Positions 1 through 19,140 of a stretch of 19,140 bases of DNA are shown piece after piece. Made by a program: the position numbers and the translations under genes. Within the stretch, counting starts at the first letter, position 1, and every line of letters starts with the position of its first letter. The notes under the pieces are model-generated. The model was not told the DNA's origin, made no database searches, and saw only the letters and a list, made by a program, of their open reading frames with translations. This DNA comes from a virus (lineage: Duplodnaviria > Heunggongvirae > Uroviricota > Caudoviricetes), in the IMG/VR virus record IMGVR_UViG_2778261300_000006, positions 1-19,140 of that record. One strand, written 5' to 3'.

Positions 1-201
1 TTAGGTAACTTCTTTACCTATTGCAACCGATAGATCTCGCAAAATCCGATAAGTCAAACGACCGCGAGGTAGTTCACTTTTACCAGCCCAGCGACTGACT
101 GCCTGGGTGACTGTTCGTGGTTCATAGCCCGCGTTAAGCGCGAACTGGCGCAAGCTACTGCCTCGTTCAACCAGCCGTGCCCGAACTTGTTGTTTGTTCA
201 T
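1..201 (-). CDS. Ner/Cro-like small HTH DNA-binding regulator
   Basis: 66-aa ORF (ATG at 201; the track's 207 start is GTG). The segment SLRQFALNAGYEPRTVTQAVSRWAGKSE resembles the Mu Ner / Nlp family pattern (SLSALSRQFGYAPTTLANALERHWPKGE) from memory. It is divergent from the plus-strand regulator. The stop codon sits at the window edge (1..3). Confidence 0.55.
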   Translation of the reverse strand: MNKQQVRARLVERGSSLRQFALNAGYEPRTVTQAVSRWAGKSELPRGRLTYRILRDLSVAIGKEVT

Positions 202-289
202 ATGCACCGTGTTCCTGTTAGGTTATGATGTACTCTATTGGGTCTATTGTACACACCCAAATGAGTGTGTCAAATTGAGATATGTTCAA
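202..289. promoter_or_regulatory. Divergent intergenic control region between the Ner-like and XRE-like regulator genes
   Basis: 88-bp AT-rich spacer between two divergently oriented HTH genes. It contains a short inverted repeat, acacac-N9-gtgtgt (about 246..266). Promoters and operators are inferred from geometry only. Confidence 0.3.
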
Positions 290-697
290 ATGAGTACAAA
301 AGAGAGATTGCGTGAAGTGATGGATGCTAATGGCATGACAATAAAGGCATTATCTGACTTATCAAAAATTCCATATCGCTCACTTCAAAACTATTTGCGT
401 GGAGAGAGAGAACCAAACGCAGAGGCTCTTGTTGCGCTAAGTGCCCATTTGGGTGTATCGATCGATTGGCTACTTACCGGTAAAGAACATATTCCATCTA
501 AAGAAATTGTTGCTGTACCAACACAACATCAATTCAGCCCGTCAGACCTTAAAATGCTTGAACTTCTAAACCAGTTAGATCCTGAGGTTCGGCGAGATCT
601 CATGCGAGGCGCTGAAGAAAAACAGCGTGTGATTGAGATGGAAAAACAACTGAAGGAATTATCCGCAACGATTGAGCGGTTAAAAAATGTGGGTTAA
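290..697 (+). CDS. XRE-family HTH transcriptional regulator (repressor-like) with a C-terminal coiled-coil region
   Basis: ATG at 290 (MSTKERLREVMDANGMTIKALSDLSKIPYRSLQNYLRGEREP...) gives a classic XRE/Cro-CI-type helix-turn-helix. The C-terminus is charged and heptad-like (EEKQRVIEMEKQLKELSATIERLK). The track ORF starts at 194, but its N-terminal extension is unlikely to be translated. No S24 peptidase domain is present. Confidence 0.6.
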   Translation: MSTKERLREVMDANGMTIKALSDLSKIPYRSLQNYLRGEREPNAEALVALSAHLGVSIDWLLTGKEHIPSKEIVAVPTQHQFSPSDLKMLELLNQLDPEVRRDLMRGAEEKQRVIEMEKQLKELSATIERLKNVG

Positions 698-767
698 TGT
701 GTTCCTAACGAGAACATATAGCAGAAATTATTTGCCATTAAGCAATAAAAAATAAGGTGGATAGCCA

Positions 768-1775
768 ATGTCTGAGCAGACCATTGAAGTTAAACACGTT
801 GTAGTTCACATTTTAGACAAACAACAAAATGGAGACGCTTCTGAGAGATTGAGTCCTGAAGAAGGTCTAGTTACTGAAGCCTCTCAGCGCCTTATAAACG
901 ATATTTGTGCAAAATATGCAGGACGCACAGGTAAAGGTTATGGCTATTTTGAAGGCGATACGGATAACTATCCTATGGAACGAATGGCTGGGGACTTTCT
1001 CGAAGGTGTTGATGATTTCTACCAAAGTTCCTGCCGAATGATGCATCACCTGACGGAACGTTCTCAGCGAGAAAACATGGCTACTGGTGGTTATGTTCTT
1101 TTTGCAAATATCGTGATAGGACACAATGAACACCTGTTGATAGCTATTGTAAGCGCTACCATTGGGTCCACTGTCACAGATGATTTTAACATCCAAGATA
1201 GTACCTATCTTGATATTGCTAAGCTGCGTATGGCTGGGCGCATTGACTTAACCGCGTGGGAAAGTGGCGCAGAGCGCTATATCAGTTTTCTTAAGGGGCA
1301 AGGTAATGTTTCAAACTATTTTAAACAGTTCCTAGGCTGTAATGATGTCTTAATCGCCAAACGAGAGTCTGAAAAGTTACGTGACGTTTTAAAAGCATTT
1401 GCGGCAGAGAAAGGACTTGACGGCGCTGAAAAAGATGCATTTCTTAAGAGTGCGTTTGAACACTTACATGCACTAAGTAAGGCTGGTGAACCACTTAGTC
1501 TTGAAACCCTTGTTAATGCCATTTGGCCCCAGGCTCCCGAGGAGTTATCTGGTAAACTTGCTGCTGAAGAGTTGGAGTTATCGGATGGCTTCGTTCCTGA
1601 TGGTCGAGTCATTCGGGCTCTGGTATCTTTTAAAGGCAAGTCTAAATATTGGGAACTTAAGTTTGACCGGGAAGGGAAAACTGAAGGCTATATTGATTAT
1701 GATCCGGAAACAAATATTATCACCCTACGTAATGTACCTGAAGAATTTAGGGAAATGTGGATGACTGAGGTTTAA
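768..1775 (+). CDS. NdpA/YejK-like (nucleoid-associated-protein-like) soluble protein; cargo gene A
   Basis: ATG at 768 with RBS AAGGTGG 7 nt upstream. 335 aa. Recalled NdpA-family landmarks: N-terminal I-x-V-K-HVVVHILDK, KGYGYF, and GGYVLFANIV...HLLIAIV. AT-rich relative to the tail genes. This is a recall-based assignment, not a search result. Confidence 0.5.
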   Translation: MSEQTIEVKHVVVHILDKQQNGDASERLSPEEGLVTEASQRLINDICAKYAGRTGKGYGYFEGDTDNYPMERMAGDFLEGVDDFYQSSCRMMHHLTERSQRENMATGGYVLFANIVIGHNEHLLIAIVSATIGSTVTDDFNIQDSTYLDIAKLRMAGRIDLTAWESGAERYISFLKGQGNVSNYFKQFLGCNDVLIAKRESEKLRDVLKAFAAEKGLDGAEKDAFLKSAFEHLHALSKAGEPLSLETLVNAIWPQAPEELSGKLAAEELELSDGFVPDGRVIRALVSFKGKSKYWELKFDREGKTEGYIDYDPETNIITLRNVPEEFREMWMTEV

Positions 1776-1777
1776 TC

Positions 1778-2983
1778 GTGGCGATTTCATTTGAGATGCT
1801 GACAGCTCTGTATCGTCGTATGGAATTCCAAGAGGGGTTTCGTGTCGGTTCGCTGTTGCTCTTAGATCAGTCCGATTGTGATCTGGTTGATACTTTGCTT
1901 GATGATCCTCGTGAATATGGTCTTTCTATTGATACAGGCACTATCGCTCCAGGTAACACGATCATCCTACGTGTGACGTCACCACGGAGTGGACTGGGAC
2001 TTGTGTTTTCCACCCATGAAAAATTGCTAAATGCTCCAAAGCATCAGTGCCTTGAGCCAGCTAATTACTTCATCCTAGAAACAAAATTTCGTAATGATGA
2101 TGAAGATATCCCCGTTTTCATCAGCAACTACCGGAAGATTCTCGAGTTCGTTAACCTGCTAAAAGAGGCCGCGGCCTACTTTGATAACTCAACTTGTCAG
2201 TTAGTTTTTCTGAAAAAAGAAGTTATCAAGCTATTACCGCACTTCGCTGCAGAAAATGTACAAAATTTGCAAAGGGAGTATCTTGATAACCTTATAGCTT
2301 GTTTCAATGATGATACCCATAAGGATCAGAAGCTAGATATTCTGATTGAAAGTATTCAAGCAGTTAGTGATGGAATTGATTCACCTCTAGTATTCGCTTA
2401 TTTACTGGACAATATTCAGCGTCTGCATGAAAAGTTTCTGAAAGGGTATCGTATCTACTCTTCTGGATTCTCTTATGACAAAGTAATGGATCAACTGCGT
2501 GCTGCAAAAGTCGAAGAAATGGGTAAAATCCACAAAGCGTTTTCAGATATCCAGAACCATATACTTGGCATTCCTGTTGCCTCTGTTATCGTAGCTACCC
2601 AATTCAAAGTGGCTACGAAATGGTCAGGCCAAGGGATAACAAACACAATAATTCTTCTGGGATGCATTTTTGCTGCAACGTTAATCTGGCTGGCACTTTC
2701 GAACCAGATGCAATCTATAAAGGCCTTAGGCGAAGAAATTGAATACAAAGAAAAACAGATTAATAAGGAATATTCCTTCATTAAAGATGACGTGGCTGGT
2801 GTATTTAGCAGTATTTCTGCGCGACTAGACACGCAGAAACGTACGTTCTGGATTATACGTGGTGTTCTAGTTATGGGAATTATTACCGCTATCACTGTTT
2901 ATTTTTGGTACACAAAACCAGCCCTTGACTTCATGCAGTACTTGATTCACTGCATGAAGTCTTACTATTCGGTCAAAAGTTGA
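1778..2983 (+). CDS. Membrane protein with a large N-terminal soluble domain and two C-terminal TM helices; cargo gene B
   Basis: GTG at 1778 with GAGG 7 nt upstream, 2 nt after the stop of gene A (operon coupling). Hydrophobic segments ITNTIILLGCIFAATLIWLAL and TFWIIRGVLVMGIITAITVYFWY are separated by a charged helical linker. No recognisable enzymatic motif. Confidence 0.55.
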   Translation: MAISFEMLTALYRRMEFQEGFRVGSLLLLDQSDCDLVDTLLDDPREYGLSIDTGTIAPGNTIILRVTSPRSGLGLVFSTHEKLLNAPKHQCLEPANYFILETKFRNDDEDIPVFISNYRKILEFVNLLKEAAAYFDNSTCQLVFLKKEVIKLLPHFAAENVQNLQREYLDNLIACFNDDTHKDQKLDILIESIQAVSDGIDSPLVFAYLLDNIQRLHEKFLKGYRIYSSGFSYDKVMDQLRAAKVEEMGKIHKAFSDIQNHILGIPVASVIVATQFKVATKWSGQGITNTIILLGCIFAATLIWLALSNQMQSIKALGEEIEYKEKQINKEYSFIKDDVAGVFSSISARLDTQKRTFWIIRGVLVMGIITAITVYFWYTKPALDFMQYLIHCMKSYYSVKS

Positions 2984-3743
2984 GGATAATGAGTTCCTTC
3001 TTGCGACTGGATTTGCCAGTGATCTTGAGGTTGTAGCTGATATCAACCGACTGAATATTTAGACCGTTGAATGCCTGCCGCATTTCCGGGATATCGTTCA
3101 CCGATATAATCATCTTCCCTTTGATCCTGCGTGCTAAATCTGCCATATGATCATAATTTTCTAGTCCGAACTCCACACCATAACCTTCCGTTCCCCAGTA
3201 TGGAGGGTCACAGTAGAACAACGTATGCGGGCGATCATATCGTTCTATGCACTGTTGCCAGTCCATGTGTTCTATGACCGTTCTGGAAAGCCGCAGGTGT
3301 GCCGCTGACAGTTCTTCTTCAATACGCAGCAGGTTGAAGCGTGGCGGGGATATGGTGGAGGTACCAAAGCTGTGCTCCGCCACCTTGCCCCCAAACGCCT
3401 GCTTCTGAAGGTAATAGAACCGTGCTGCACGCTGGATATCCGTCAGTGTTTCTTCCGGGGTGATCTGCAGCCATTTGTAGATCTGCCGGCTGACCAGCGC
3501 CCATTTGAACTGGCGTACAAATTCTTCCAGATGATGTTTTACCACCCGATACAGGTTCACCAGCTCACCGTTGATATCATTAATGACTTCGATCTTGCCG
3601 GGTACCTTAAGAAAATAGAGCGCTGCTGCCCCACAAAACGGCTCCACATAACATTCATGCGCCGGAAACAGCGGCAGGATGTGTTTTGCAAGGCGGCGTT
3701 TGCCACCAATCCATGGAACGATGGGTAATGTCTGCATTTTCAT
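2973..3743 (-). CDS. dam: DNA adenine methyltransferase (Dam-like, D12-class N6-adenine MTase)
   Basis: 256 aa. N-terminal AdoMet-binding motif (EPFCGAAALYF), catalytic DPPY motif (FYCDPPYWG) and WIGGKRRL near the N-terminus. The 3' end overlaps the 3' end of cargo gene B by 11 bp (convergent). Confidence 0.85.
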   Translation of the reverse strand: MKMQTLPIVPWIGGKRRLAKHILPLFPAHECYVEPFCGAAALYFLKVPGKIEVINDINGELVNLYRVVKHHLEEFVRQFKWALVSRQIYKWLQITPEETLTDIQRAARFYYLQKQAFGGKVAEHSFGTSTISPPRFNLLRIEEELSAAHLRLSRTVIEHMDWQQCIERYDRPHTLFYCDPPYWGTEGYGVEFGLENYDHMADLARRIKGKMIISVNDIPEMRQAFNGLNIQSVDISYNLKITGKSSRKKELIILNF

Positions 3744-3990
3744 AATCTGTAAGCCTTTTACAATTATAAAAAATATGGCAGGCTAGTCTGGTCTCGCGAG
3801 ACTGACTGAACCTTGGTCGGCTCACAGCGCATTCCTGTGGGGCGATGGCCAGCCCGGTGTTCGGGTACCGGGCTGGTCGTTCTTTCAAAGCCATCATGCA
3901 GTGCACGTTTACATCTTCACTATTAACGCTGTTTAAAATCCGTATCCCGCCACATTTGTGATGCTGTCTCCACCAAACGAGGAGACACAC

Positions 3991-4341
3991 ATGAAAAACC
4001 TGAAAAAATTCATTCCCCCTGTTAAAAAACCTCGCCTCAGCGGCTGGCTGCTGACCTCAGTGCTGCTGCTGGGCACCATCGCTCTGGTCTCGCCACAGCA
4101 GTTGCCTGTTGTGATCTACAAGCTGGCACTCATCACGCTGGCAGCAGTGCTGGGTTACTGGCTTGACCGTTCGCTCTTCCCCAAAGCCCGTCCCGGTCAG
4201 TACCTGAAACATGACGACAGACTGATGGCTGAAGGGCGTTTCCCTGTGCAGACCGGCCTTCACCTTGTATTTTCTGCTGCGTTAATCCGCCGTGCACTGA
4301 TTGTTGCAGCGGTCTGTCTGGCTGTGGCAACAGGACTGTGA
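3991..4341 (+). CDS. Holin-like small membrane protein (2-3 predicted TM segments)
   Basis: ATG at 3991 with RBS GAGGAG at 3979..3984. 116 aa with hydrophobic stretches WLLTSVLLLGTIALV, VVIYKLALITLAAVLGYWL and ALIRRALIVAAVCLAVATGL. Stop overlaps the start region of the downstream lysis gene. Confidence 0.5.
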   Translation: MKNLKKFIPPVKKPRLSGWLLTSVLLLGTIALVSPQQLPVVIYKLALITLAAVLGYWLDRSLFPKARPGQYLKHDDRLMAEGRFPVQTGLHLVFSAALIRRALIVAAVCLAVATGL

Positions 4342-4343
4342 CC

Positions 4344-4886
4344 ATGAACTGGCCTCAAATCACCCTCATTATTCTGTTCGCCTTTGGTCTGGGCGTAACC
4401 GCCATCAGGCACGGAGAACCACGTAACGATAAATACAGCTTCTGGTGGCAGCTTGCTGGCAACCTGGTGATTGTCTGGCTGCTCTGGTGTGGCGGCTTCT
4501 TCAGTCAGGCCCGCGCAGCGCAGCCTCCGCAGGCTGCGCTGCAGTATCGCGATGATGTGATCCGTAATGCCCGGCTTGAATGGGGACTGTCTGCGCCGGT
4601 GGCCGATTTCGCCGCGCAACTGCATCAGGAAAGCGGCTGGCGACCTGATGCGGTCTCGCCGGCTGGCGCTCAGGGACTGGCGCAGTTCATGCCTGCCACT
4701 GCCGACTGGATAAGCCAGTTGATACCGATGCTGAGCAGTCGTGAGCCGTTTAATCCTGCATGGGCTATCCGGGCGCTGGTCAGCTATGACCGCTGGCTGT
4801 GGCAGCGCGTAAGCGCCGCCAACGACTGCGAGCGTATGGCCATGACACTGTCGGGCTATAACGGTGGTCTACACCCTGCGCCGTAA
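4344..4886 (+). CDS. Signal-anchored lytic transglycosylase (endolysin-like, SLT domain), apparently truncated or frameshifted
   Basis: N-terminal hydrophobic segment (WPQITLIILFAFGLGVTAI) followed by the family-1 SLT signature ...HQESGWRPDAVSPAGAQGLAQFMPATADWI... and YNGG. The ORF stops right after the YNGG motif; see the 4891..5016 feature. Confidence 0.6.
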   Translation: MNWPQITLIILFAFGLGVTAIRHGEPRNDKYSFWWQLAGNLVIVWLLWCGGFFSQARAAQPPQAALQYRDDVIRNARLEWGLSAPVADFAAQLHQESGWRPDAVSPAGAQGLAQFMPATADWISQLIPMLSSREPFNPAWAIRALVSYDRWLWQRVSAANDCERMAMTLSGYNGGLHPAP

Positions 4887-4890
4887 GGGG

Positions 4891-5016
4891 ATGCCTGTTG
4901 CCGACAAGTACGACGGAGCCGGCGGCAAGGTGAAGTACTGCCGTTATACCGATATCTACAAAGTCGCCGTGGTTGGTGGCGATGCCGGGTATCTCATTAC
5001 CGGTATCAGTAAATAA
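4891..5016 (+). pseudogene. +1-frame continuation of the transglycosylase gene (frameshifted 3' portion or separate 41-aa ORF)
   Basis: The +1 frame reads ...YTLRRKGMPVADKYDGAGGKVKYCRYTDIYKVAVVGGDAGYLITGISK and ends at 5016, exactly where the RBS (AAGGAGG) of the next gene begins. The frame switch would lie near the ggtggt run around 4862..4870. Confidence 0.4.
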
Positions 5017-5025
5017 GGAGGCGTT

Positions 5026-5364
5026 ATGGGAACCACTCAGCAGGTCATTCTGATCACAACCGTAACGGCAGGGGCCGCACTGGCACAGCAGCGTTTTGTC
5101 GGGGCAGATAATACCCCCTGTAAAGCCGGTGCCGCAGCGCTCGGGGTTGCCGAAGTGGATGCTGTTACCGGCGACAGCACGCCGGTGAGCGTTCTGGGCA
5201 TTATTGCTGTCGAGGCCGGGGCCGCTGTCAGCCGTGGTGTGGCTGTTCAGTCAGATGCTCAGGCCAGAGCCGTGCCGCAGTCCGGCGACGGTAAATCCTG
5301 TGGTATTGCACTTGATGAAGCCGGGGGTGAAGGCGACGTCATTCGTATCCTGCGCGGGGTGTGA
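5026..5364 (+). CDS. Ala/Gly-rich small structural protein (possibly Mu gp35-like, DUF2190-type)
   Basis: ATG at 5026 with perfect RBS AAGGAGG. 112 aa. Its position immediately upstream of a DUF1320-like gene matches Mu late-operon order. The family call is from memory and weak. Confidence 0.45.
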   Translation: MGTTQQVILITTVTAGAALAQQRFVGADNTPCKAGAAALGVAEVDAVTGDSTPVSVLGIIAVEAGAAVSRGVAVQSDAQARAVPQSGDGKSCGIALDEAGGEGDVIRILRGV

Positions 5365-5365
5365 C

Positions 5366-5812
5366 ATGTACTGCACCCTGGAGGATTTGCTTGCGCAGGT
5401 GCCGGAACGAACGCTGATCGAGCTCACCAGTGAAGAGATGGACTTCGACTCGCCTGCAACAGTGAATACCCGTGTGGTGGACAGCTGTATCCGCTATGCC
5501 GACGAGCTGATTGATGCCCATCTGCGCGGACGCTATATCCTGCCACTGGCAGAGATACCGACTGTTCTGCGGGACATTGCCATCACGCTGGTCCGTTACC
5601 GGCTCTACGCCCGCCGCCCGGAAGGTGACCTCCCGGATACGGTGAAGGATGACCACAAAGAAGCGCTGCGGCAACTCAGGGAGTTACGTGATAACAGGCT
5701 CACGCTGGGGCTGCCGTCCACTCAGAAAGATGTGCCTGAGCCTGGCGAGTTTCGTGTACGCAGCCGCCCGGCCACTTTCGGCGGTCGTGACGGTTTACTG
5801 GAGAAATACTGA
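5366..5812 (+). CDS. Mu gp36-like protein (DUF1320 family; head-tail joining or tail completion)
   Basis: MYCTLEDLL...RYILPLAEIPTVLRDIAITLVRYRLYARRP...HKEALRQLRELRDNRLTLGL matches the recalled DUF1320 pattern (RY.LPL...P.VL..A.D.A.YRLY.RR...YK.A...L..I..G...LG). Start is 2 nt after the upstream stop. Confidence 0.65.
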   Translation: MYCTLEDLLAQVPERTLIELTSEEMDFDSPATVNTRVVDSCIRYADELIDAHLRGRYILPLAEIPTVLRDIAITLVRYRLYARRPEGDLPDTVKDDHKEALRQLRELRDNRLTLGLPSTQKDVPEPGEFRVRSRPATFGGRDGLLEKY

Positions 5813-6276
5813 TGAACGTTCTGCCCGTCCTTGATGCGGTACTGGCCCGGTTACGCGAGAAGCTGCCGCAACTGCAGGTGGAGTACTTCCCGGAGAAACC
5901 GGCTGAATATCGCCTGAACCATCCGGTTGGCGCGTTGCTGCTGAGCTATGCCGGTTCGCGCTTTGACAGGCCGGATGATACCGGTGCGGTGATCCAGTCT
6001 CAGACTATCCAGCTCTGCGTCACGGTGGTCTTCCGCCAGCTCAACGGTAAAAAAGGGGCGATTAATGTCCTGGATGCTGTCCGCCGCATTCTCGGCGGCC
6101 ACACCCCGCCCGGCTGCCGCCGCCGTATCTGGCTGACCCGCGAGGTGTTTATCGGTGAAGTCAGGGGGCTGTGGCAATACGCCCTCGACTTCGCGACTGA
6201 AAGCGTCTTTATCGAAGACAGCGATTTACCGTCCGGCCCGCTGTTAACCGAAGTGAACTATGAGGAAAGCGAGTGA
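5812..6276 (+). CDS. Mu gp37-like virion morphogenesis / tail completion protein (tentative)
   Basis: ATG overlaps the upstream stop (TGATG) and GGAG lies 8 nt upstream. 154 aa. Assignment is by position between the gp36-like gene and the sheath gene in Mu-like order. Confidence 0.45.
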   Translation: MNVLPVLDAVLARLREKLPQLQVEYFPEKPAEYRLNHPVGALLLSYAGSRFDRPDDTGAVIQSQTIQLCVTVVFRQLNGKKGAINVLDAVRRILGGHTPPGCRRRIWLTREVFIGEVRGLWQYALDFATESVFIEDSDLPSGPLLTEVNYEESE

Positions 6277-6527
6277 TGAAAGAATACCGCTATTCCGGCC
6301 CGGCCAGCGGCGTCACGCTGTCGGACGGAACCGAAATCCTGCTCTGGCCGGGGAAGACGGTTTCCCTGCCGGAGGAGCATGAATACGTGAAGGTACTGGT
6401 GGCGCTGAAGCATCTGACGCCGGTACCAGAAGATACTAAACCCGCCGTCACACCGGCTGTGCAGTCACCAAAGCGCAGAAGCAGCAGTGACAGCGAAGTG
6501 AAAACGGAGGACTCCCATGGCAGCTAA
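6276..6527 (+). CDS. Small protein with a disordered, charged C-terminus (Mu gp38-like position)
   Basis: ATG at 6276 overlaps the upstream TGA. 83 aa. The 3' end overlaps the sheath gene start by 11 nt. Confidence 0.4.
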   Translation: MKEYRYSGPASGVTLSDGTEILLWPGKTVSLPEEHEYVKVLVALKHLTPVPEDTKPAVTPAVQSPKRRSSSDSEVKTEDSHGS

Positions 6528-8749: not shown

Positions 8750-8756
8750 CATCACA

Positions 8757-8778
8757 GGGGCTCCGGCCCCTTCTTTTT
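8757..8778 (+). terminator. Rho-independent terminator-like hairpin inside the tail operon
   Basis: GGGGC-tccg-GCCCC stem-loop (8757..8770) followed by TTCTTTTT (8771..8778). Confidence 0.45.
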
Positions 8779-8846
8779 AATCCCCTTTAATATCCGTCAC
8801 GTCCACCGCCAGACATACTGCTCTGAATTTACAAAGGAGTATGATC

Positions 8847-9182
8847 ATGTCACAGACCCAGTCCGATACTTTTACGCTGTCTTATCCTTTCACCACTGCT
8901 GCAGGTACCAGAATTGAACAGATTGAACTGAAACGCCTGACAGTAAAAGACCTGAAGCAGGTGCGCAAAATCAACAAAGACCCGACAGACTGGGACGAAC
9001 CACTGATTGCCCGTAGCACCGGTATCCTCCCGGAAGACCTCGATAACATGGATCTTGCCGACTATATGGAGCTGCAGAAACGATTTCAGAAAATCACTGG
9101 GCTGGGCAAGAGCGACAAAAACACTGATGCAGGTGCAGGGCCTGCTGGCGAGATGGTTCAGGTTTCAACCGGGGGAGATTGA
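8847..9182 (+). CDS. Tail assembly chaperone (P2 gpE / lambda gpG-type), upstream frame
   Basis: ATG at 8847 with AAGGAG 7 nt upstream (the 8841 ATG is too close to the RBS). Small acidic protein directly upstream of the tape measure gene, with an overlapping out-of-frame ORF, the hallmark of the conserved chaperone frameshift pair. Confidence 0.65.
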   Translation: MSQTQSDTFTLSYPFTTAAGTRIEQIELKRLTVKDLKQVRKINKDPTDWDEPLIARSTGILPEDLDNMDLADYMELQKRFQKITGLGKSDKNTDAGAGPAGEMVQVSTGGD

Positions 9183-9264
9183 TGCCCTCGATACTGACGA
9201 TCTGGAGATGTGGCTGGAGCAGGCTGAAGAGCAAATCAAAAGCGAGTTCGGCGACAATCAGTAA
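9007..9264 (+). CDS. Frameshift extension of the tail assembly chaperone (E'-like C-terminal extension)
   Basis: ORF in the +1 frame relative to 8847..9182, overlapping its 3' end. It encodes an acidic helical tail (...IDALDTDDLEMWLEQAEEQIKSEFGDNQ). It has no plausible independent start (TTG in the track). Only the 3' part (roughly 9170..9264) would be translated after the shift. Confidence 0.45.
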   Translation: MPVAPVSSRKTSITWILPTIWSCRNDFRKSLGWARATKTLMQVQGLLARWFRFQPGEIDALDTDDLEMWLEQAEEQIKSEFGDNQ

Positions 9265-9357
9265 CAACGTATCACTTAACAGCCGCCAGTCGCGGCTGTT
9301 CTGCATGGGTTTCAGACACTTCCCTTCCGTTTTTTTTGCTTTCAGAGGATAGCCACC

Positions 9358-14585: not shown

Positions 14586-14641
14586 ACCTTCTTAAACGCC
14601 TTTAATATCGGCGCTTACTTCCCGGGGGCAATACTGCCTCC

Positions 14642-14989
14642 ATGAAAACGACCTCAGTATTCTGGCAACCAGCTCTGCAGGCTCCCGGCGAAATCGTCCG
14701 GGGGCTGGATGATATCCGGCAGTCCATCCAGATCATCCTGCGGACTCCCCGCGGCAGCGACCCGCATCGCCCGGAGTTCGGCAGCAATCTGCACCTTTAT
14801 ATCGACTGGCCTGTCGGCCGGGCCATTCCGCATGTGGTTCGCGAATCCGTCGATGCCATCAGGCGCTGGGAACCCCGCTGCCAGCTTATGTCGGTTAAAC
14901 CCGCCGTCGACGGCGAACATCTTACGCTCCGGGTGAGCTGGAAAGGCTCAGACGGACAACCCCGTACTCAGGAACTGCTATGGCGCTGA
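14642..14989 (+). CDS. Baseplate wedge protein (gpW / gp25-like)
   Basis: 115 aa. Pattern ...IRQSIQIILRTPRGSDPHRPEFGSNLHLYIDWP... is typical of the GPW_gp25 family. 3' end overlaps the J-like start. Confidence 0.75.
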   Translation: MKTTSVFWQPALQAPGEIVRGLDDIRQSIQIILRTPRGSDPHRPEFGSNLHLYIDWPVGRAIPHVVRESVDAIRRWEPRCQLMSVKPAVDGEHLTLRVSWKGSDGQPRTQELLWR

Positions 14990-16656: not shown

Positions 16657-17622
16657 ATGGCAAATCTACCCGAAACCCCGCAGTGGGAAAGCGGCATCTA
16701 CCAGATTGAGGTCTCTGACCCCGTTCTGGGCGGACCTGACGGAATTTCTAACCGCCAGGCTAAACAACTGGCCAGCCGAACGTCATACCTCAAACAGAAG
16801 GTCGAAAAAAGCGGAACAGACCTGGCTGCACATATCGCGGCAGTTGACCCGCATACCCAGTACGCGACGAAAGCCAGTCCGACATTCACCGGCACACCAA
16901 CAGCACCTACACCTGCAAATGGTGATAACAGCAAAAAGCTGGCGACGACGGAGTTTGTGGCCAAAGCACTTGCGGCACTTGCAGGCAGCGCCCCTGAGAC
17001 ACTGGATACGCTTAAAGAGCTGGCTGACGCTCTCGGTAATGATCCAAACTTTGCGACTACGGTACTGAACAAGCTGGCGGAAAAGCTGGCTAAAGACCAG
17101 AACGGCGCAGATATTCCTGAGCCTGCGCTGTTTGTCAAAAACCTTGGTTTGGGGGAAGGCTCTGCACTGCCCGTTGGTGTGCCTGTTCCGTGGCCCTCAG
17201 CCACACCGCCAGCAGGGTGGCTGAAATGTAACGGAGCAGCATTTTCTTCTGAAATGTACCCCAAACTGGCAAAGGCTTACCCCGCGAATAAATTACCGGA
17301 TTTACGGGGTGAGTTTATTCGTGGCTGGGATGACGGGCGCGGGATTGATCCTGGTCGCCAGTTGCTTGGGTGGCAGAAAGGTACTTTGGTTGGTGGTAGA
17401 GATGACAATGATGCCGCAGTTGATATTTCATATATGAGTAACGGAAATAGTATTGATTACGGTGGCGATAAAACATTTTCAACGAATTACCGGAGTGATT
17501 ATTTATGGTATGCAATTCTGGGTAACGTCACTGGTCGTGCCAAAGCTGCTTTAAGTGGGTCCTTTTTTAATGTAACTCGTCCACGCAACATCGCCTTTAA
17601 CTACATTGTGAGAGCAGCATAG
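16657..17622 (+). CDS. Tail fiber protein: constant N-terminal part fused to variable C-terminal cassette 1 (tail-collar domain)
   Basis: 321 aa. The constant region contains the conserved fiber segment SPTFTGTPTAPTPANGDNSKKLATTEFVAKALAALAGSAPETLDTLKELADALGNDPNFATT (P2 gpH-like). The variable part begins at about 17146 with the tail-collar-type motif GWLKCNGAAFSSEMYPKLAKAYP...LPDLRGEF and ends ...RPRNIAFNYIVRAA. Confidence 0.8.
   Translation: MANLPETPQWESGIYQIEVSDPVLGGPDGISNRQAKQLASRTSYLKQKVEKSGTDLAAHIAAVDPHTQYATKASPTFTGTPTAPTPANGDNSKKLATTEFVAKALAALAGSAPETLDTLKELADALGNDPNFATTVLNKLAEKLAKDQNGADIPEPALFVKNLGLGEGSALPVGVPVPWPSATPPAGWLKCNGAAFSSEMYPKLAKAYPANKLPDLRGEFIRGWDDGRGIDPGRQLLGWQKGTLVGGRDDNDAAVDISYMSNGNSIDYGGDKTFSTNYRSDYLWYAILGNVTGRAKAALSGSFFNVTRPRNIAFNYIVRAA
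17132..17157. other. Putative Gin/Hin/Cin-type recombination crossover site A, at the constant/variable junction of the fiber gene
   Basis: ttgtcaaaaacc-tt-ggtttgggggaa: a 12+2+12 bp arrangement whose left half matches the recalled hix/gix half-site (TTCTTGAAAACC / TTCCTGTAAACC) at 9 of 12 positions. Homology with the downstream repeat copy starts exactly at the central dinucleotide. Confidence 0.5.
17144..17345 (+). repeat. Repeat copy A (5' conserved part of variable fiber cassette 1)
   Basis: About 200 bp nearly identical to 17628..17829 (direct) and to the reverse complement of 19035..19140 (inverted; truncated by the window end). Confidence 0.85.
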
Positions 17623-17641
17623 AAACGTTGGTTTGGGGGAA
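17616..17641. other. Putative crossover site B (direct orientation relative to site A)
   Basis: agcatagaaacg-tt-ggtttgggggaa: right half identical to site A, left half diverged and overlapping the stop codon of cassette 1. Confidence 0.4.
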
Positions 17642-17829
17642 GGCTCTGCACTGCCCGTTGGTGTGCCCGTTCCGTGGCCCTTAGCAACACCACCAACGGG
17701 CTGGCTGAAATGTAACGGTGCAGCATTTTCTTCTGAAATGTACCCCAAACTGGCAAAAGCCTACCCCGCGAATAAATTACCGGATTTACGCGGAGAATTT
17801 ATCCGTGGCTGGGATGATGGGCGAGGAAT
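17628..17829 (+). repeat. Repeat copy B (5' conserved part of silent cassette 2)
   Basis: Direct repeat of 17144..17345 with a few substitutions; the two copies diverge after ...GRGID. Confidence 0.85.
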
Positions 17830-18109
17830 TGATGCGGCACGCGCTTTATTGAGCATTCAAAACGGGATGTTGGAAAAACACCGCCATATTGTTGTAGCTA
17901 ACGATGGATATGACACAAAAGATGAATGGGAGTTGGCTACGATTTTCAAAAAAACATATACACAAGGCAGGGGGCTTGATGCCACAAATACAGGAGGGAG
18001 TTTGACTCCATCACCAACGCTTCATTCACGAGGAAGTATTGGTAACACAGGTGGTAGTGAAACCCGCCCCCGCAATATTGCATTTAACTATATCGTGAGG
18101 GCGGCTTAG
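17630..18109 (+). CDS. Silent alternative tail-fiber C-terminal cassette 2 (no own start codon)
   Basis: Open frame encoding GEGSALPVGVPVPWP...GWLKCNGAAFSSEMYPKLAKAYPANKLPDLRGEFIRGWDDGRGID, then a unique middle, then the conserved end ...RPRNIAFNYIVRAA. There is no ATG or RBS (the track start is TTG at 17633), so it would need to be joined to the constant region to be expressed. Confidence 0.55.
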   Translation, partial: GLGEGSALPVGVPVPWPLATPPTGWLKCNGAAFSSEMYPKLAKAYPANKLPDLRGEFIRGWDDGRGIDAARALLSIQNGMLEKHRHIVVANDGYDTKDEWELATIFKKTYTQGRGLDATNTGGSLTPSPTLHSRGSIGNTGGSETRPRNIAFNYIVRAA

Positions 18110-18115
18110 TTATAT

Positions 18116-18733
18116 TCAACTGGCTGCTGCCAGAGGCATTTCCGGCCAGTTGATATCCGGTGCAGTGCTGATGTCAGTCGCATTAAGCACATCTATGAAA
18201 TCAAGCACGGCGTTTAGTTTTTCCGTCTCCTGGGGCGTCAATCGGCGTCCGGCTCGTAGTTTGAGATTTATAAGCTCAACAGATGCCATTGCCTGTTCCT
18301 CAAGTTGCTGACGATGCGCTCCGGCAGCTTCCAGTTCTGCTGCGTGCTGTCGTCCCGCATCTGTCACCCAGGTCTCACCATCCCAGACATCATAGATAGT
18401 AGCTGGCTGTTTCACCGTCGTATCAGGAGGGTAATCTCCCGGTTGTGTGATTTGCACAGCGTTACCATTCTCTGTGCTGTAAACCGTTTCGCCTCTGTGG
18501 TCTGGAACATATTTCCAGATGTTCTGGTCGGTATCACGACAGACAGCGAAGCCGGGGCGTTTTTCTGGTGGCGCGTCAATGCATGAGTGAGCCGGAATTC
18601 CAACACCATAAGCGAGATACTCAACAGTGGCAGAGAGATATTCACGGTTTTCAGCATCGTAGTTATAAACGGTAATATCGCCTGCAGTTATAGCGATACC
18701 ATTCTGATCAAGTACTGCAGCAGCATTATTCAT
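18116..18733 (-). CDS. Tail fiber assembly chaperone (Mu U/U'-like)
   Basis: 205 aa. C-terminal ...INWPEMPLAAAS resembles the conserved C-terminus of Mu U / Tfa-type fiber assembly proteins (recall). ATG overlaps the stop of the inverted cassette 3 (TAATG). Confidence 0.75.
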   Translation of the reverse strand: MNNAAAVLDQNGIAITAGDITVYNYDAENREYLSATVEYLAYGVGIPAHSCIDAPPEKRPGFAVCRDTDQNIWKYVPDHRGETVYSTENGNAVQITQPGDYPPDTTVKQPATIYDVWDGETWVTDAGRQHAAELEAAGAHRQQLEEQAMASVELINLKLRAGRRLTPQETEKLNAVLDFIDVLNATDISTAPDINWPEMPLAAAS

Positions 18734-19140
18734 TAAGTAGCCCTTACAATATAGTTAAACGCAATATTACGGGGGCGGTTTTCCGTTCCTGTATTCCCTC
18801 CGTTGGCACCTAATCTATAAACACCACGAGTGCCAATAGCACGTAGTGAAGATGGAACTTTTACACCTGACTCATCTGTTTTAACAATCCCGCCATCACC
18901 GTATGTAGCCAGTATACCAGGGTTTGTTCCTGCACGGGTGCTATTTGCGGCAAGCCCTTCACCAGTCCATAACTCCATATAGTGAATATGATCTATAACC
19001 GAATGTGATTGTGCATTAAGCAAGGAACGCCCTGAATCAATTCCCCGCCCGTCATCCCAGCCGCGAATAAACTCACCCCGTAAATCCGGTAATTTATTCG
19101 CGGGGTAGGCTTTTGCCAGTTTGGGGTACATTTCAGAAGA
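18733..19140 (-). CDS. Inverted alternative tail-fiber C-terminal cassette 3 (partial; 5' end beyond window)
   Basis: Minus-strand frame encoding ...SSEMYPKLAKAYPANKLPDLRGEFIRGWDDGRGID-(unique middle)-...NRPRNIAFNYIVRAT. Open to the window edge. Followed by its own chaperone on the same strand. Confidence 0.65.
   Translation of the reverse strand, partial: SSEMYPKLAKAYPANKLPDLRGEFIRGWDDGRGIDSGRSLLNAQSHSVIDHIHYMELWTGEGLAANSTRAGTNPGILATYGDGGIVKTDESGVKVPSSLRAIGTRGVYRLGANGGNTGTENRPRNIAFNYIVRAT
19035..19140 (-). repeat. Repeat copy C (inverted; truncated by window end)
   Basis: The reverse complement matches 17730..17829 and 17246..17345. The inverted crossover site itself would lie about 85 bp beyond the window. 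Confidence 0.8.

What the first reader, a model, noticed from the sequence alone, without database searches (positions are those of the whole stretch)
8784..8794. Identical 11-mer CCTTTAATATC in two of the few non-coding gaps of the tail operon
The same 11-mer occurs at 8784..8794 (upstream of the chaperone gene) and at 14594..14604 (upstream of the gpW-like gene). Both lie in rare intergenic gaps of an otherwise overlapping operon, 35-50 nt upstream of a start codon. It contains a -10-like TAATAT. A shared internal promoter, activator site or RNA-processing site is possible. A chance match of this length between two short gaps is unlikely, though not impossible.
Basis: seen in the sequence. 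Interest (0 to 1): 0.28.

Follow-up and report, generated by a model that had tools for sequence, protein, structure and literature searches.

The report
Activator-type late promoters of Mu-like prophage
The repeated 11-mer is the conserved core of an activator-binding box in two (in fact three) internal late promoters of a BcepMu-like transposable prophage, built like the Mor/C-dependent promoters of phage Mu: a real regulatory element, but of a known kind.

Summary
Chance sharing between the two gaps has P of about 0.0015.

It is part of a larger composite: TTAA-N6(G/C-rich)-TTAA, 4 conserved flanking bases, a 19-nt hypervariable spacer of fixed length, then a -10-like hexamer nAnnnT (CATACT, AATACT). 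A third copy lies at 3923..3965, upstream of the holin gene.

The window is a BcepMu-like prophage of E. coli with its head genes deleted. Intact relatives carry exactly four such sites, before the lysis, head, tail-chaperone and baseplate-W operons. The architecture holds at the homologous gaps in about 190 related loci, from Enterobacterales to Burkholderia BcepMu and Neisseria.

The geometry matches Mu Mor/C-dependent promoters: a 16-bp dyad with a G/C-rich 6-bp spacer centred near -43, no -35, and a recognisable -10. Intact relatives encode one Mor-family activator; its gene is not in the window.

The W promoter places its hexamer 6 nt before the only possible ATG, with no Shine-Dalgarno, which predicts a leaderless mRNA.

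No transcript ends or protein binding have been measured. Verdict: new member of a known kind, moderate interest.

The parts
3923..3936 (+). Third copy of the activator box (TTAA-CGCTGT-TTAA), followed by AATC.
   Evidence: TTAA-N6-TTAA occurs only 3 times in the window, all at these gaps. It is conserved in the holin loci L084-L163, where 61 distinct upstream windows were compared.
3960..3965 (+). -10-like hexamer GATGCT of the lysis promoter. Predicted +1 is A3972, the SD AGGAG is at 3980..3984, and the holin ATG is at 3991.
   Evidence: The spacing is the same as at site 1: 24 nt from the second TTAA to hexamer position 2. The start codon was checked.
8756..8779 (+). Intrinsic-terminator-like hairpin AGGGGCtccgGCCCCT plus TCTTTTT, ending the sheath-tube-DUF7739 transcript just before promoter site 1.
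   Evidence: It is the top hit of the terminator scan and folds at -12.8 kcal/mol. Relatives keep a hairpin here, with a different stem in L043 and L054 (GGGGGCCgcaaGGTTCCC) and in BcepMu (GGCCCGCttcgGCGGGCC-T6).
8776..8791 (+). Activator box of the tail-chaperone promoter: 16 bp, tTTAA-TCCCCT-TTAAt. It is an imperfect dyad with a G/C-rich 6-bp spacer, and its centre is about -42.5 relative to the predicted +1.
   Evidence: Mean information is 1.89 bits per position in the dyad, against about 1 bit in the spacer.
8784..8794 (+). It consists of the last 3 spacer bases, the promoter-proximal half-site TTAA, and the 4 conserved flanking bases TATC.
8814..8819 (+). -10-like hexamer CATACT of the tail-chaperone promoter. 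Predicted +1 is A8826, the SD AGGAG is at 8835..8839, and the conserved start ATG is at 8847.
   Evidence: ATACTGC is shared with site 2 at the same distance. GACATACTGC is nearly invariant in the upstream windows of 77 loci, while the spacer before it varies.
14591..14606 (+). Activator box of the baseplate (gpW) promoter: cTTAA-ACGCCT-TTAAt. TTAAA-CGCC-TTTAA is a perfect 5-bp inverted repeat.
14599..14609 (+).
14624..14641 (+). -10-like hexamer AATACT (14630..14635), flanked by the inverted repeat GGGGGC / GCCTCC. The hexamer ends 6 nt before ATG 14642, so the predicted +1 is the A of the start codon: a leaderless gpW mRNA.
   Evidence: The sequence is. There is no SD, and 14642 is the first possible start in this frame. 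The hexamer-6/7 nt-ATG geometry is kept in all 28 distinct variants and in BcepMu (CAACAT-GGCCGC-ATG). The hairpin folds at -12.7 kcal/mol.
8847..9182 (+). Tail assembly chaperone gene (PF10109), the first gene of the operon served by site 1.
14642..14989 (+). gpW/gp25 baseplate wedge gene (PF04965), the first gene of the operon served by site 2.

Best explanation
The two 11-mers are the promoter-proximal half of the binding box for the prophage's own Mor/C-family late activator. They sit in two internal late promoters: P(tail chaperone) at about 8776..8826 and P(baseplate W) at about 14591..14642. A third promoter of the same build, P(lysis), lies at about 3922..3972. A fourth, P(head), has been lost with the head-gene deletion.

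Inferred mechanism, by analogy with Mu Mor and C: the activator binds the 16-bp dyad nTTAA-N6-TTAAn centred at about -42.5/-43.5, where a -35 element would normally be. It recruits sigma70 RNA polymerase through alpha-CTD and sigma region 4, and transcription starts about 7 nt after the nAnnnT hexamer.

At site 1 a terminator just upstream ends the sheath/tube transcript and the promoter restarts transcription for chaperone, tape measure and hub genes. At site 2 the start is predicted to fall on the A of the gpW ATG, giving a leaderless mRNA.

What is shown: the sequence architecture, its conservation and specificity, and the presence of one Mor-family gene in intact relatives. What is inferred: activator binding, the transcription start points and leaderless translation.
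For: 1. Both copies extend to the same composite: TTAA-N6-TTAA-TATC, 19/20 nt, (C/A)ATACTGC.

2. The composite regex hits the window 3 times against 0.04 in dinucleotide shuffles (maximum 1 in 300). The third hit is independent of the derivation and lies on the right strand in the gap before the holin gene.

3. The window is 100% identical to the E. coli MS20655 BcepMu-like prophage apart from an 8.5-kb head deletion. That intact prophage has exactly four well-formed + strand sites, before the lysis, head, chaperone and W genes. Burkholderia phage BcepMu has four hits at the homologous gaps and none elsewhere.

4. In 77 IMG/VR loci (chaperone identity 58-100%) the regex gives 201 hits. About 194 fall at the three homologous gaps, and only 1 is on the minus strand. 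The lysis site is conserved in nearly all of 80 holin loci; the three failures are truncated or misplaced upstream windows. The same holds at the homologous gaps in Buttiauxella, Mixta, Pantoea, Erwinia, Brenneria, Burkholderia and Neisseria, and at the chaperone gap in Kingella.

5. The pattern is a footprint. Dyad, 4-nt flank and hexamer are conserved (pooled 1.34, 1.40 and 1.11 bits per position). The spacer is hypervariable (0.34-0.38) but of fixed length. In the hexamers read off in the corrected register, A at position 2 and T at position 6 recur, as in sigma70 -10 elements.

6. The geometry equals that of Mu. Mor and C bind a 16-bp element of two 5-bp inverted repeats with a G/C-rich 6-bp spacer centred at -43.5. 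Those promoters have a -10 but no -35, and the bases just downstream of the dyad are critical (PMC4390567, PMC2582627).

7. Intact relatives encode one Mor-family protein (PF08765, E=1e-43) at the end of the early operon. The E. coli and BcepMu proteins are 53% identical overall but nearly identical in the HTH (ELARKFGVSLQWVY/ELARKFGVSLQWIY). This matches the shared DNA box. Mu Mor and C differ in the HTH.

8. The sigma70 consensus scan finds no ordinary -35/-10 promoter at these sites.
Against: - No transcription start, footprint or activator dependence has been measured for this phage family.
- The only dRNA-seq set found is B. cenocepacia J2315, an uninduced BcepMu lysogen. It shows no start at any of the four predicted positions. 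That is expected for silent late promoters but gives no positive support.
- The Mor gene is not inside the window. It lies about 8 kb to the left in the intact relative, so its presence in the source genome is assumed.
- The predicted dyad centre is -42.5, against -43.5 in Mu. The half-site sequences differ from Mu's. I could not retrieve the exact Mu dyads for a base-by-base comparison.
- The loci are related by descent, so part of the conservation is shared ancestry. The hypervariable spacer is the internal control for that.
Confidence: 0.75

Rival explanations
1. The conserved dyad is the binding site of a different DNA-binding protein, not the Mor homologue. Candidates are a host nucleoid protein (IHF or Fis), the phage HTH repressor or the phage NA37 protein. 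It would modulate or repress late operons.
For: The half-sites are A/T-rich, as nucleoid proteins prefer. The window encodes an HTH_3 protein and an NA37 nucleoid-associated protein. No binding experiment exists.
Against: The box is absent from the early control region and occurs only in front of late operons, always on the coding strand. It lies at a fixed 24 nt from a -10-like hexamer where a -35 should be, and no -35 is present. The 5+6+5 layout with a G/C-rich spacer is that of Mor/C sites. The NA37 and 401-aa cargo genes are absent from BcepMu, which has the same box.
Confidence: 0.12
2. TAATAT within the 11-mer is the -10 element of a weak constitutive sigma70 promoter.
For: TAATAT matches TATAAT at 4 of 6 positions, including A2 and T6.
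Against: There is no -35-like hexamer 16-18 nt upstream; at site 1 that position is the terminator stem. The scan does not report a promoter there. Sister promoters have TTAAAAGC, or CTGAAAG in the BcepMu chaperone site, which lacks T6. This reading does not explain the conserved upstream half-site or the conserved downstream hexamer at fixed distance.
Confidence: 0.04
3. The motif acts at RNA level, as an RNase E/III processing site or a translational element in the polycistronic tail mRNA.
For: It is A/U-rich and predicted single-stranded. It follows a stable hairpin at site 1. Segmental processing of long phage operons is common.
Against: Dyad symmetry and a fixed-length but sequence-free spacer up to a -10-like hexamer are DNA-geometry features. 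The lysis and head versions keep the dyad but not the 11-mer sequence. There is no Rfam match. At the lysis site the element lies downstream of a convergent gene, so no upstream sense transcript is expected.
Confidence: 0.04
4. The match is a chance repeat without function.
For: Across all pairs of gaps the expectation for a shared 11-mer is about 0.08, which is not negligible.
Against: P is about 0.0015 for these two gaps. A second shared word lies at the same distance. A third site exists in the window, and the element is conserved across roughly 190 loci from several bacterial orders.
Confidence: 0.01

Closest known systems
Phage Mu middle promoter Pm (Mor-dependent) and late promoters Plys, PI, PP, Pmom (C-dependent)
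   Same: - An imperfect 16-bp dyad of two 5-bp repeats and a G/C-rich 6-bp spacer, centred near -43 and replacing the -35.
- A recognisable -10 element.
- Functionally important bases immediately downstream of the dyad; here the 4-nt flank is as conserved as the dyad.
- Several such promoters head the lysis, head and tail operons.
- The activator is a PF08765 protein encoded at the end of the early region, next to a gemA/gp16 homologue.
- A terminator-like hairpin directly abuts the promoter; Mu's record annotates terminators at Pm and Plys.
   Different: - The half-site sequence differs (TTAA...TTAA here), and the activator is only 28-31% identical to C and Mor, with a different recognition helix.
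- Annotation shows one Mor/C-family gene per genome. This implies a two-step cascade (early to late) rather than Mu's three-step one.
- The promoter positions differ: there are two tail promoters (chaperone and W) and no mom.
- The predicted dyad centre is -42.5.
- The W promoter is predicted to be leaderless.
- Nothing has been tested experimentally.
Phage P2 late promoters (Ogr-dependent), including the leaderless gene V transcript
   Same: Activator-dependent late promoters lacking a -35 are placed in front of tail and baseplate operons. The first gene of the baseplate operon is expressed from a leaderless mRNA. P2 is cited among the few E. coli leaderless cases (PMC4633059, citing Christie and Calendar 1985).
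   Different: Ogr is a zinc-finger protein unrelated to Mor. From memory and not checked here, its site is TGT-N12-ACA near -55. The gene orders differ (V-W-J-I in P2; here V ends the upstream operon and W starts the next).
IS10/Tn10 'fold-back inhibition' of read-through transcripts
   Same: The sequence just upstream of the element's own transcription start is complementary to the ribosome-binding site. Only externally initiated (read-through) RNAs can fold and hide the site. The lysis, head and chaperone promoters here show that arrangement.
   Different: Here this is only a thermodynamic prediction. The formal covariation test was negative. The IS10 comparison is recalled from memory, not checked in a paper.

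Membership tests
Mor/C-type activator-dependent promoter (phage Mu Pm, Plys, PI, PP, Pmom) | A 16-bp imperfect dyad: two 5-bp inverted repeats separated by a G/C-rich 6-bp spacer | tested here: met
   The three boxes are tTTAA-TCCCCT-TTAAt, cTTAA-ACGCCT-TTAAt and aTTAA-CGCTGT-TTAAa. Each spacer has 4 of 6 G/C. The definition is taken from PMC4390567.
Mor/C-type activator-dependent promoter (phage Mu Pm, Plys, PI, PP, Pmom) | Dyad centred at -43.5 relative to the mapped transcription start | tested here: inconclusive
   No start has been mapped. Measured from the -10-like hexamer, the centre is -42.5 if +1 lies 7 nt after the hexamer and -43.5 if 8 nt. The spacing is constant across the roughly 138 distinct instances once register is corrected, with a single 20-nt spacer.
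Mor/C-type activator-dependent promoter (phage Mu Pm, Plys, PI, PP, Pmom) | A recognisable -10 hexamer but no -35 hexamer | tested here: met
   The hexamers fit nAnnnT, with A2 and T6 recurring in the corrected register. The -35 position holds TATCCG, TATCGG or AATCCG, and the consensus promoter scan reports nothing at these sites.
Mor/C-type activator-dependent promoter (phage Mu Pm, Plys, PI, PP, Pmom) | A Mor/C-family (PF08765) activator encoded by the same element | tested here: inconclusive
   The gene is present in the intact, otherwise identical E. coli prophage (L004 11591..11980, E=1e-43) and in BcepMu gp01. It is not inside the 19-kb window.
Mor/C-type activator-dependent promoter (phage Mu Pm, Plys, PI, PP, Pmom) | Transcription depends on, and the box is bound by, the activator | not testable with these tools
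   This needs EMSA or footprinting and reporter assays. The only indirect observation is that the BcepMu late promoters are silent in an uninduced J2315 lysogen.
Leaderless mRNA (gpW gene) | No Shine-Dalgarno, and a -10 element placed so that +1 is the A of the start codon | tested here: met
   The sequence is AATACT-GCCTCC-ATG, and 14642 is the first possible start in this frame. The geometry is kept in 28 distinct variants and in BcepMu. [quoted passage not shown]
Leaderless mRNA (gpW gene) | A primary 5' end mapped at the start codon, and translation of that RNA | not testable with these tools
   No transcript data are available.
Rho-independent terminator (8756..8779) | A G/C-rich hairpin followed by a U-tract | tested here: met
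   Scan; fold of -12.8 kcal/mol; retained with different stems in relatives.

The most novel reading that the evidence does not exclude
The late promoters of BcepMu-like phages may be built as self-insulating units. The segment from the -10 hexamer to +1 doubles as the 5' arm of a hairpin. Its 3' arm is the Shine-Dalgarno or start codon in the enteric lysis, head and chaperone promoters. In the Neisseria relatives the 3' arm is the second half of a terminator stem.

On this reading, read-through RNA is translationally silent or terminated. Only RNA initiated at the Mor-activated promoter is open. At gpW, and at the BcepMu head gene, that RNA is leaderless.

This would protect the lysogen from accidental expression of lysis and virion genes, and would set operon stoichiometry independently of upstream transcription.
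Probability: 0.3. Interest if true: 0.55.

Novelty: new member of a known kind. Interest (0 to 1): 0.35.

Why it matters
It gives a concrete, testable consensus for the late promoters of the BcepMu-like transposable phages: nTTAA-N6-TTAAn, 4 flanking bases, a 19-nt spacer, then nAnnnT. These phages are widespread as prophages in E. coli, Klebsiella, Salmonella-type enterics, plant-associated Erwiniaceae, Burkholderia and Neisseria.

The consensus defines their late operon boundaries: lysis, head, chaperone/tape measure and baseplate/fibre. It also suggests a two-tier cascade with a single Mor-family activator.

That helps annotation, prediction of prophage inducibility, and the engineering of tail-only (tailocin-like) derivatives such as the head-deleted copy in this window. 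The predicted leaderless gpW mRNA and the possible insulation hairpins are small but directly testable additions to the Mu paradigm.

Tried and rejected
- **TAATAT as the -10.** Rejected: there is no -35, it is not conserved in sister promoters, and a better-conserved hexamer lies at fixed distance downstream.
- **Known RNA family.** Rfam at gathering thresholds over the whole window found nothing.
- **RNA structure around the 11-mer.** None; it is predicted unpaired.
- **Covariation for the SD-sequestering hairpin at the lysis promoter.** Tested on 24 distinct sequences. The core pairs are nearly invariant, with only one-sided G.U changes, and the shuffle controls were not exceeded. This gives no support, so the hairpin idea stays speculative. 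Shuffling the 12 nt upstream of +1 gives only modest P values of 0.005-0.11 per site.
- **Experimental starts.** I used the dRNA-seq table of B. cenocepacia J2315, a BcepMu lysogen (PMC4603805, Table S3), with the coordinate mapping x = 609955 - p. No start lies at the four predicted late promoters. The only starts in the late-gene direction are before gp20 and one inside gp48. This is uninformative because the lysogen was not induced. Sequence searches of the promoter table found nothing; that file was truncated when stored.
- **Literature on BcepMu late promoters.** No paper in the library describes them.
- **Base-by-base comparison with the Mu dyads.** I read Pm and Plys from the Mu genome but could not place the published dyads with certainty without the figures. 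The comparison therefore rests on the published verbal description.

Full report
**Observation.** CCTTTAATATC occurs exactly twice in the window, both on the + strand, at 8784..8794 and 14599..14609. Both copies lie in genuine non-coding gaps:
- 8750..8846, before the tail assembly chaperone (PF10109);
- 14586..14641, before the gpW/gp25 gene (PF04965).

Two gaps of this size share a word of 11 or more bases with P of about 0.0015.

**The 11-mer is part of a larger unit.** Read in context, both copies are the right-hand part of TTAA-N6-TTAA-TATC. Both are followed by the same word ATACTGC, 31/32 nt after the start of the 11-mer.
- Site 1: TTAATCCCCTTTAATATC.
- Site 2: TTAAACGCCTTTAATATC.

TTAA-N6-TTAA occurs only three times in the window. 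The third occurrence, 3923..3936 (TTAACGCTGTTTAAAATC), lies in the gap before the holin gene. It has the same 24-nt distance to a -10-like GATGCT. The composite pattern gives 3 hits in the window against 0.04 in dinucleotide shuffles.

**Genomic context.** The window is a BcepMu-like (Bcepmuvirus) transposable prophage.
- It is 87-89% identical to phages PhiKM, KP12 and Phi06_2974 B.
- It is 100% identical to a prophage of E. coli MS20655, except that 8,513 bp are missing at window position 4869/4870. The missing stretch runs from the middle of the SLT lysin gene to the 3' end of the capsid gene.
- The gene order is: HTH repressor, NA37, unknown, Dam (minus strand), holin, truncated SLT, cement, gp36, gp37, sheath, tube, DUF7739, chaperone, tape measure, U/X/D-like, V-like, W, J, I, fibres.

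**Comparative test.**
- The intact E. coli prophage carries exactly four well-formed sites on the coding strand. They lie before the lysis, head (protease/scaffold), chaperone and W genes. The relaxed pattern also gave two spurious hits in flanking host genes.
- Burkholderia phage BcepMu is only 28% identical in the chaperone. With a relaxed pattern it has four hits, all at the homologous gaps.
- In 77 IMG/VR loci the pattern hits 201 times. About 194 of these are at the three gaps covered, and 1 is on the minus strand.
- Nearly all of 80 holin loci show the lysis version.
- Twenty-nine genome loci show it in Buttiauxella, Mixta, Pantoea, Erwinia, Brenneria, Lonsdalea (head site), Arsenophonus, Burkholderia, Neisseria and Kingella.

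The pattern of variation is a footprint. The dyad, the four bases after it and the hexamer are conserved. The 19-nt spacer is hypervariable but of constant length. In the hexamers read off in the corrected register, A at position 2 and T at position 6 recur, which is the signature of a sigma70 -10 element.

**Mechanism.** This is the architecture described for phage Mu. Mor and C bind a 16-bp element of two 5-bp inverted repeats with a G/C-rich hexanucleotide spacer, centred at -43.5. Their promoters have a -10 but no -35, and the bases just downstream of the dyad are also needed (PMC4390567, PMC2582627). Cryo-EM places the activators on two adjacent major grooves upstream of the -35, contacting alpha-CTD, sigma region 4 and the beta flap (bioRxiv 10.1101/2025.05.02.651988).

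Here the dyad centre falls at -42.5 or -43.5, depending on whether +1 is 7 or 8 nt after the hexamer. Intact relatives encode one PF08765 protein at the end of the early operon, next to a gemA homologue. Its HTH is almost identical between the E. coli prophage and BcepMu, which share the DNA box, and differs from Mu Mor and C.

I therefore read the 11-mer as three parts: the last three spacer bases, the promoter-proximal half-site, and the flanking TATC (about -45 to -35). The two sites are Mor-type late promoters for the chaperone/tape-measure operon and the baseplate/fibre operon. Binding, activator dependence and start points are inferred, not shown.

**Details at each site.**
- *Site 1.* It is preceded by a strong terminator-like hairpin (8756..8771, -12.8 kcal/mol, then TCTTTTT). 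Relatives retain a hairpin here with different stems. The sheath/tube transcript probably ends there, and the promoter restarts transcription. The conserved start of the chaperone gene is ATG 8847, 7 nt after the SD, not 8841.
- *Site 2.* The hexamer AATACT is followed by exactly 6 nt and then the only available ATG, with no Shine-Dalgarno. The same geometry holds in all 28 distinct variants and in BcepMu (CAACAT-GGCCGC-ATG). This predicts a leaderless gpW mRNA. Leaderless genes in E. coli are known mainly from lambda, P2 and Tn1721 (PMC4633059).

**A secondary, speculative pattern.** The sequence from the -10 hexamer to +1 is complementary to the ribosome-binding region downstream at three promoters:
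- lysis, GCUGUCUCC/GGAGAC;
- head, CUGUCCC/GGGACAG;
- chaperone, CAUACU/AGUAUG or UGCUCU/GGAGCA.

At W, an inverted repeat flanks the hexamer instead. RNA that includes these bases folds at -7 to -17 kcal/mol, whereas RNA starting at the predicted +1 is essentially unstructured. In Neisseria relatives the equivalent hairpin is followed by a T-run. This resembles protection against read-through.

The support is weak. Formal covariation was not supported, and the shuffle tests are only modestly significant.

**What failed or gave nothing.**
- Rfam found nothing.
- No literature in the library describes BcepMu late promoters.
- The dRNA-seq data for the uninduced BcepMu lysogen J2315 show no starts at the predicted late promoters. 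That is compatible with activator dependence but is not positive evidence.

**Verdict.** Its '-10-like TAATAT' and 'RNA-processing' options are not supported. The element is a new member of the known class of Mor/C-dependent phage promoters, and interest is moderate.

Noticed in passing
window 4869..4870 (junction); compare L004 24868..33380: Relative to the otherwise 100% identical prophage of E. coli MS20655, the window lacks 8,513 bp. The missing genes are the 3' part of the SLT lysin, the spanins, terminase, portal, F and G, the head promoter, the protease/scaffold and most of the capsid gene. What remains is a lysis-plus-tail element without heads, either tailocin-like or simply defective. 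No place in any of the 5,426 complete E. coli genomes covers 80% or more of window 1..6500, so none was found with this junction.
   Followed up: partly
window 3923..3993: A third promoter of the same build lies in front of the holin gene: TTAACGCTGTTTAAAATC, a 19-nt spacer, then GATGCT. The 6 nt before the predicted +1 (GTCTCC) pair with the SD region (GGAGAC). Read-through RNA folds at -10.5 kcal/mol, and RNA from +1 at -0.5.
   Followed up: yes
window 14624..14644: The inverted repeat GGGGGC/GCCTCC flanks the -10-like hexamer and directly abuts the gpW ATG. BcepMu has GCGGC/GCCGC at the same place, and the BcepMu lysis and head promoters also have repeats flanking their hexamers (ATGCCGTC-CAAGAT-GACGGCAT; GCCC-GATGAT-GGGC). 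The function is unknown.
   Followed up: partly
L187 and L191 (Neisseria loci): hits about 138-141 nt upstream of the chaperone match, about 5.7-6.1 kb downstream of it and, in L187 only, about 6.1 kb upstream: In Neisseria relatives the variable spacer between box and hexamer of most sites contains TTCAGACGGC. From memory, this is the reverse complement of the Neisseria DNA uptake sequence. A hairpin plus T-run starts right at the hexamer, giving a terminator embedded in the promoter.
   Followed up: no
window 8841..8849: The first ATG of the chaperone ORF (8841) is not conserved in relatives and lies 1 nt after the SD. The conserved start is ATG 8847. The overlapping ORF 9179..9352, before the tape-measure gene, fits the usual chaperone frameshift product.
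   Followed up: partly
window 16657..19131: The tail-fibre region has two Collar-domain ORFs on the + strand. A fibre-assembly gene (PF02413) and an unassigned 132-aa ORF lie on the - strand. KP12 has a DNA invertase just beyond this point, so this looks like an invertible host-range segment.
   Followed up: no
window 768..2983: An NA37 nucleoid-associated protein gene and a 401-aa ORF with no Pfam match sit between the repressor-like HTH gene and Dam. They look like lysogeny-expressed cargo, and BcepMu lacks them.
   Followed up: no
L172 (NZ_PJIO01000028.1, labelled Arthrobacter sp. GMC3): An 8.2-kb contig labelled as an actinobacterium carries this enterobacterial prophage, with 83% chaperone identity and identical promoters. 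It is probably a contaminant contig.
   Followed up: no
L082 (phage Mu) 664..734 and 1884..1970: Mu's own record annotates predicted terminators overlapping or abutting Pm and Plys. The -10 region of Plys (TAGACTGCC) resembles the hexamer-plus-TGC of the promoters here (CATACTGC, CAGACTGT).
   Followed up: no
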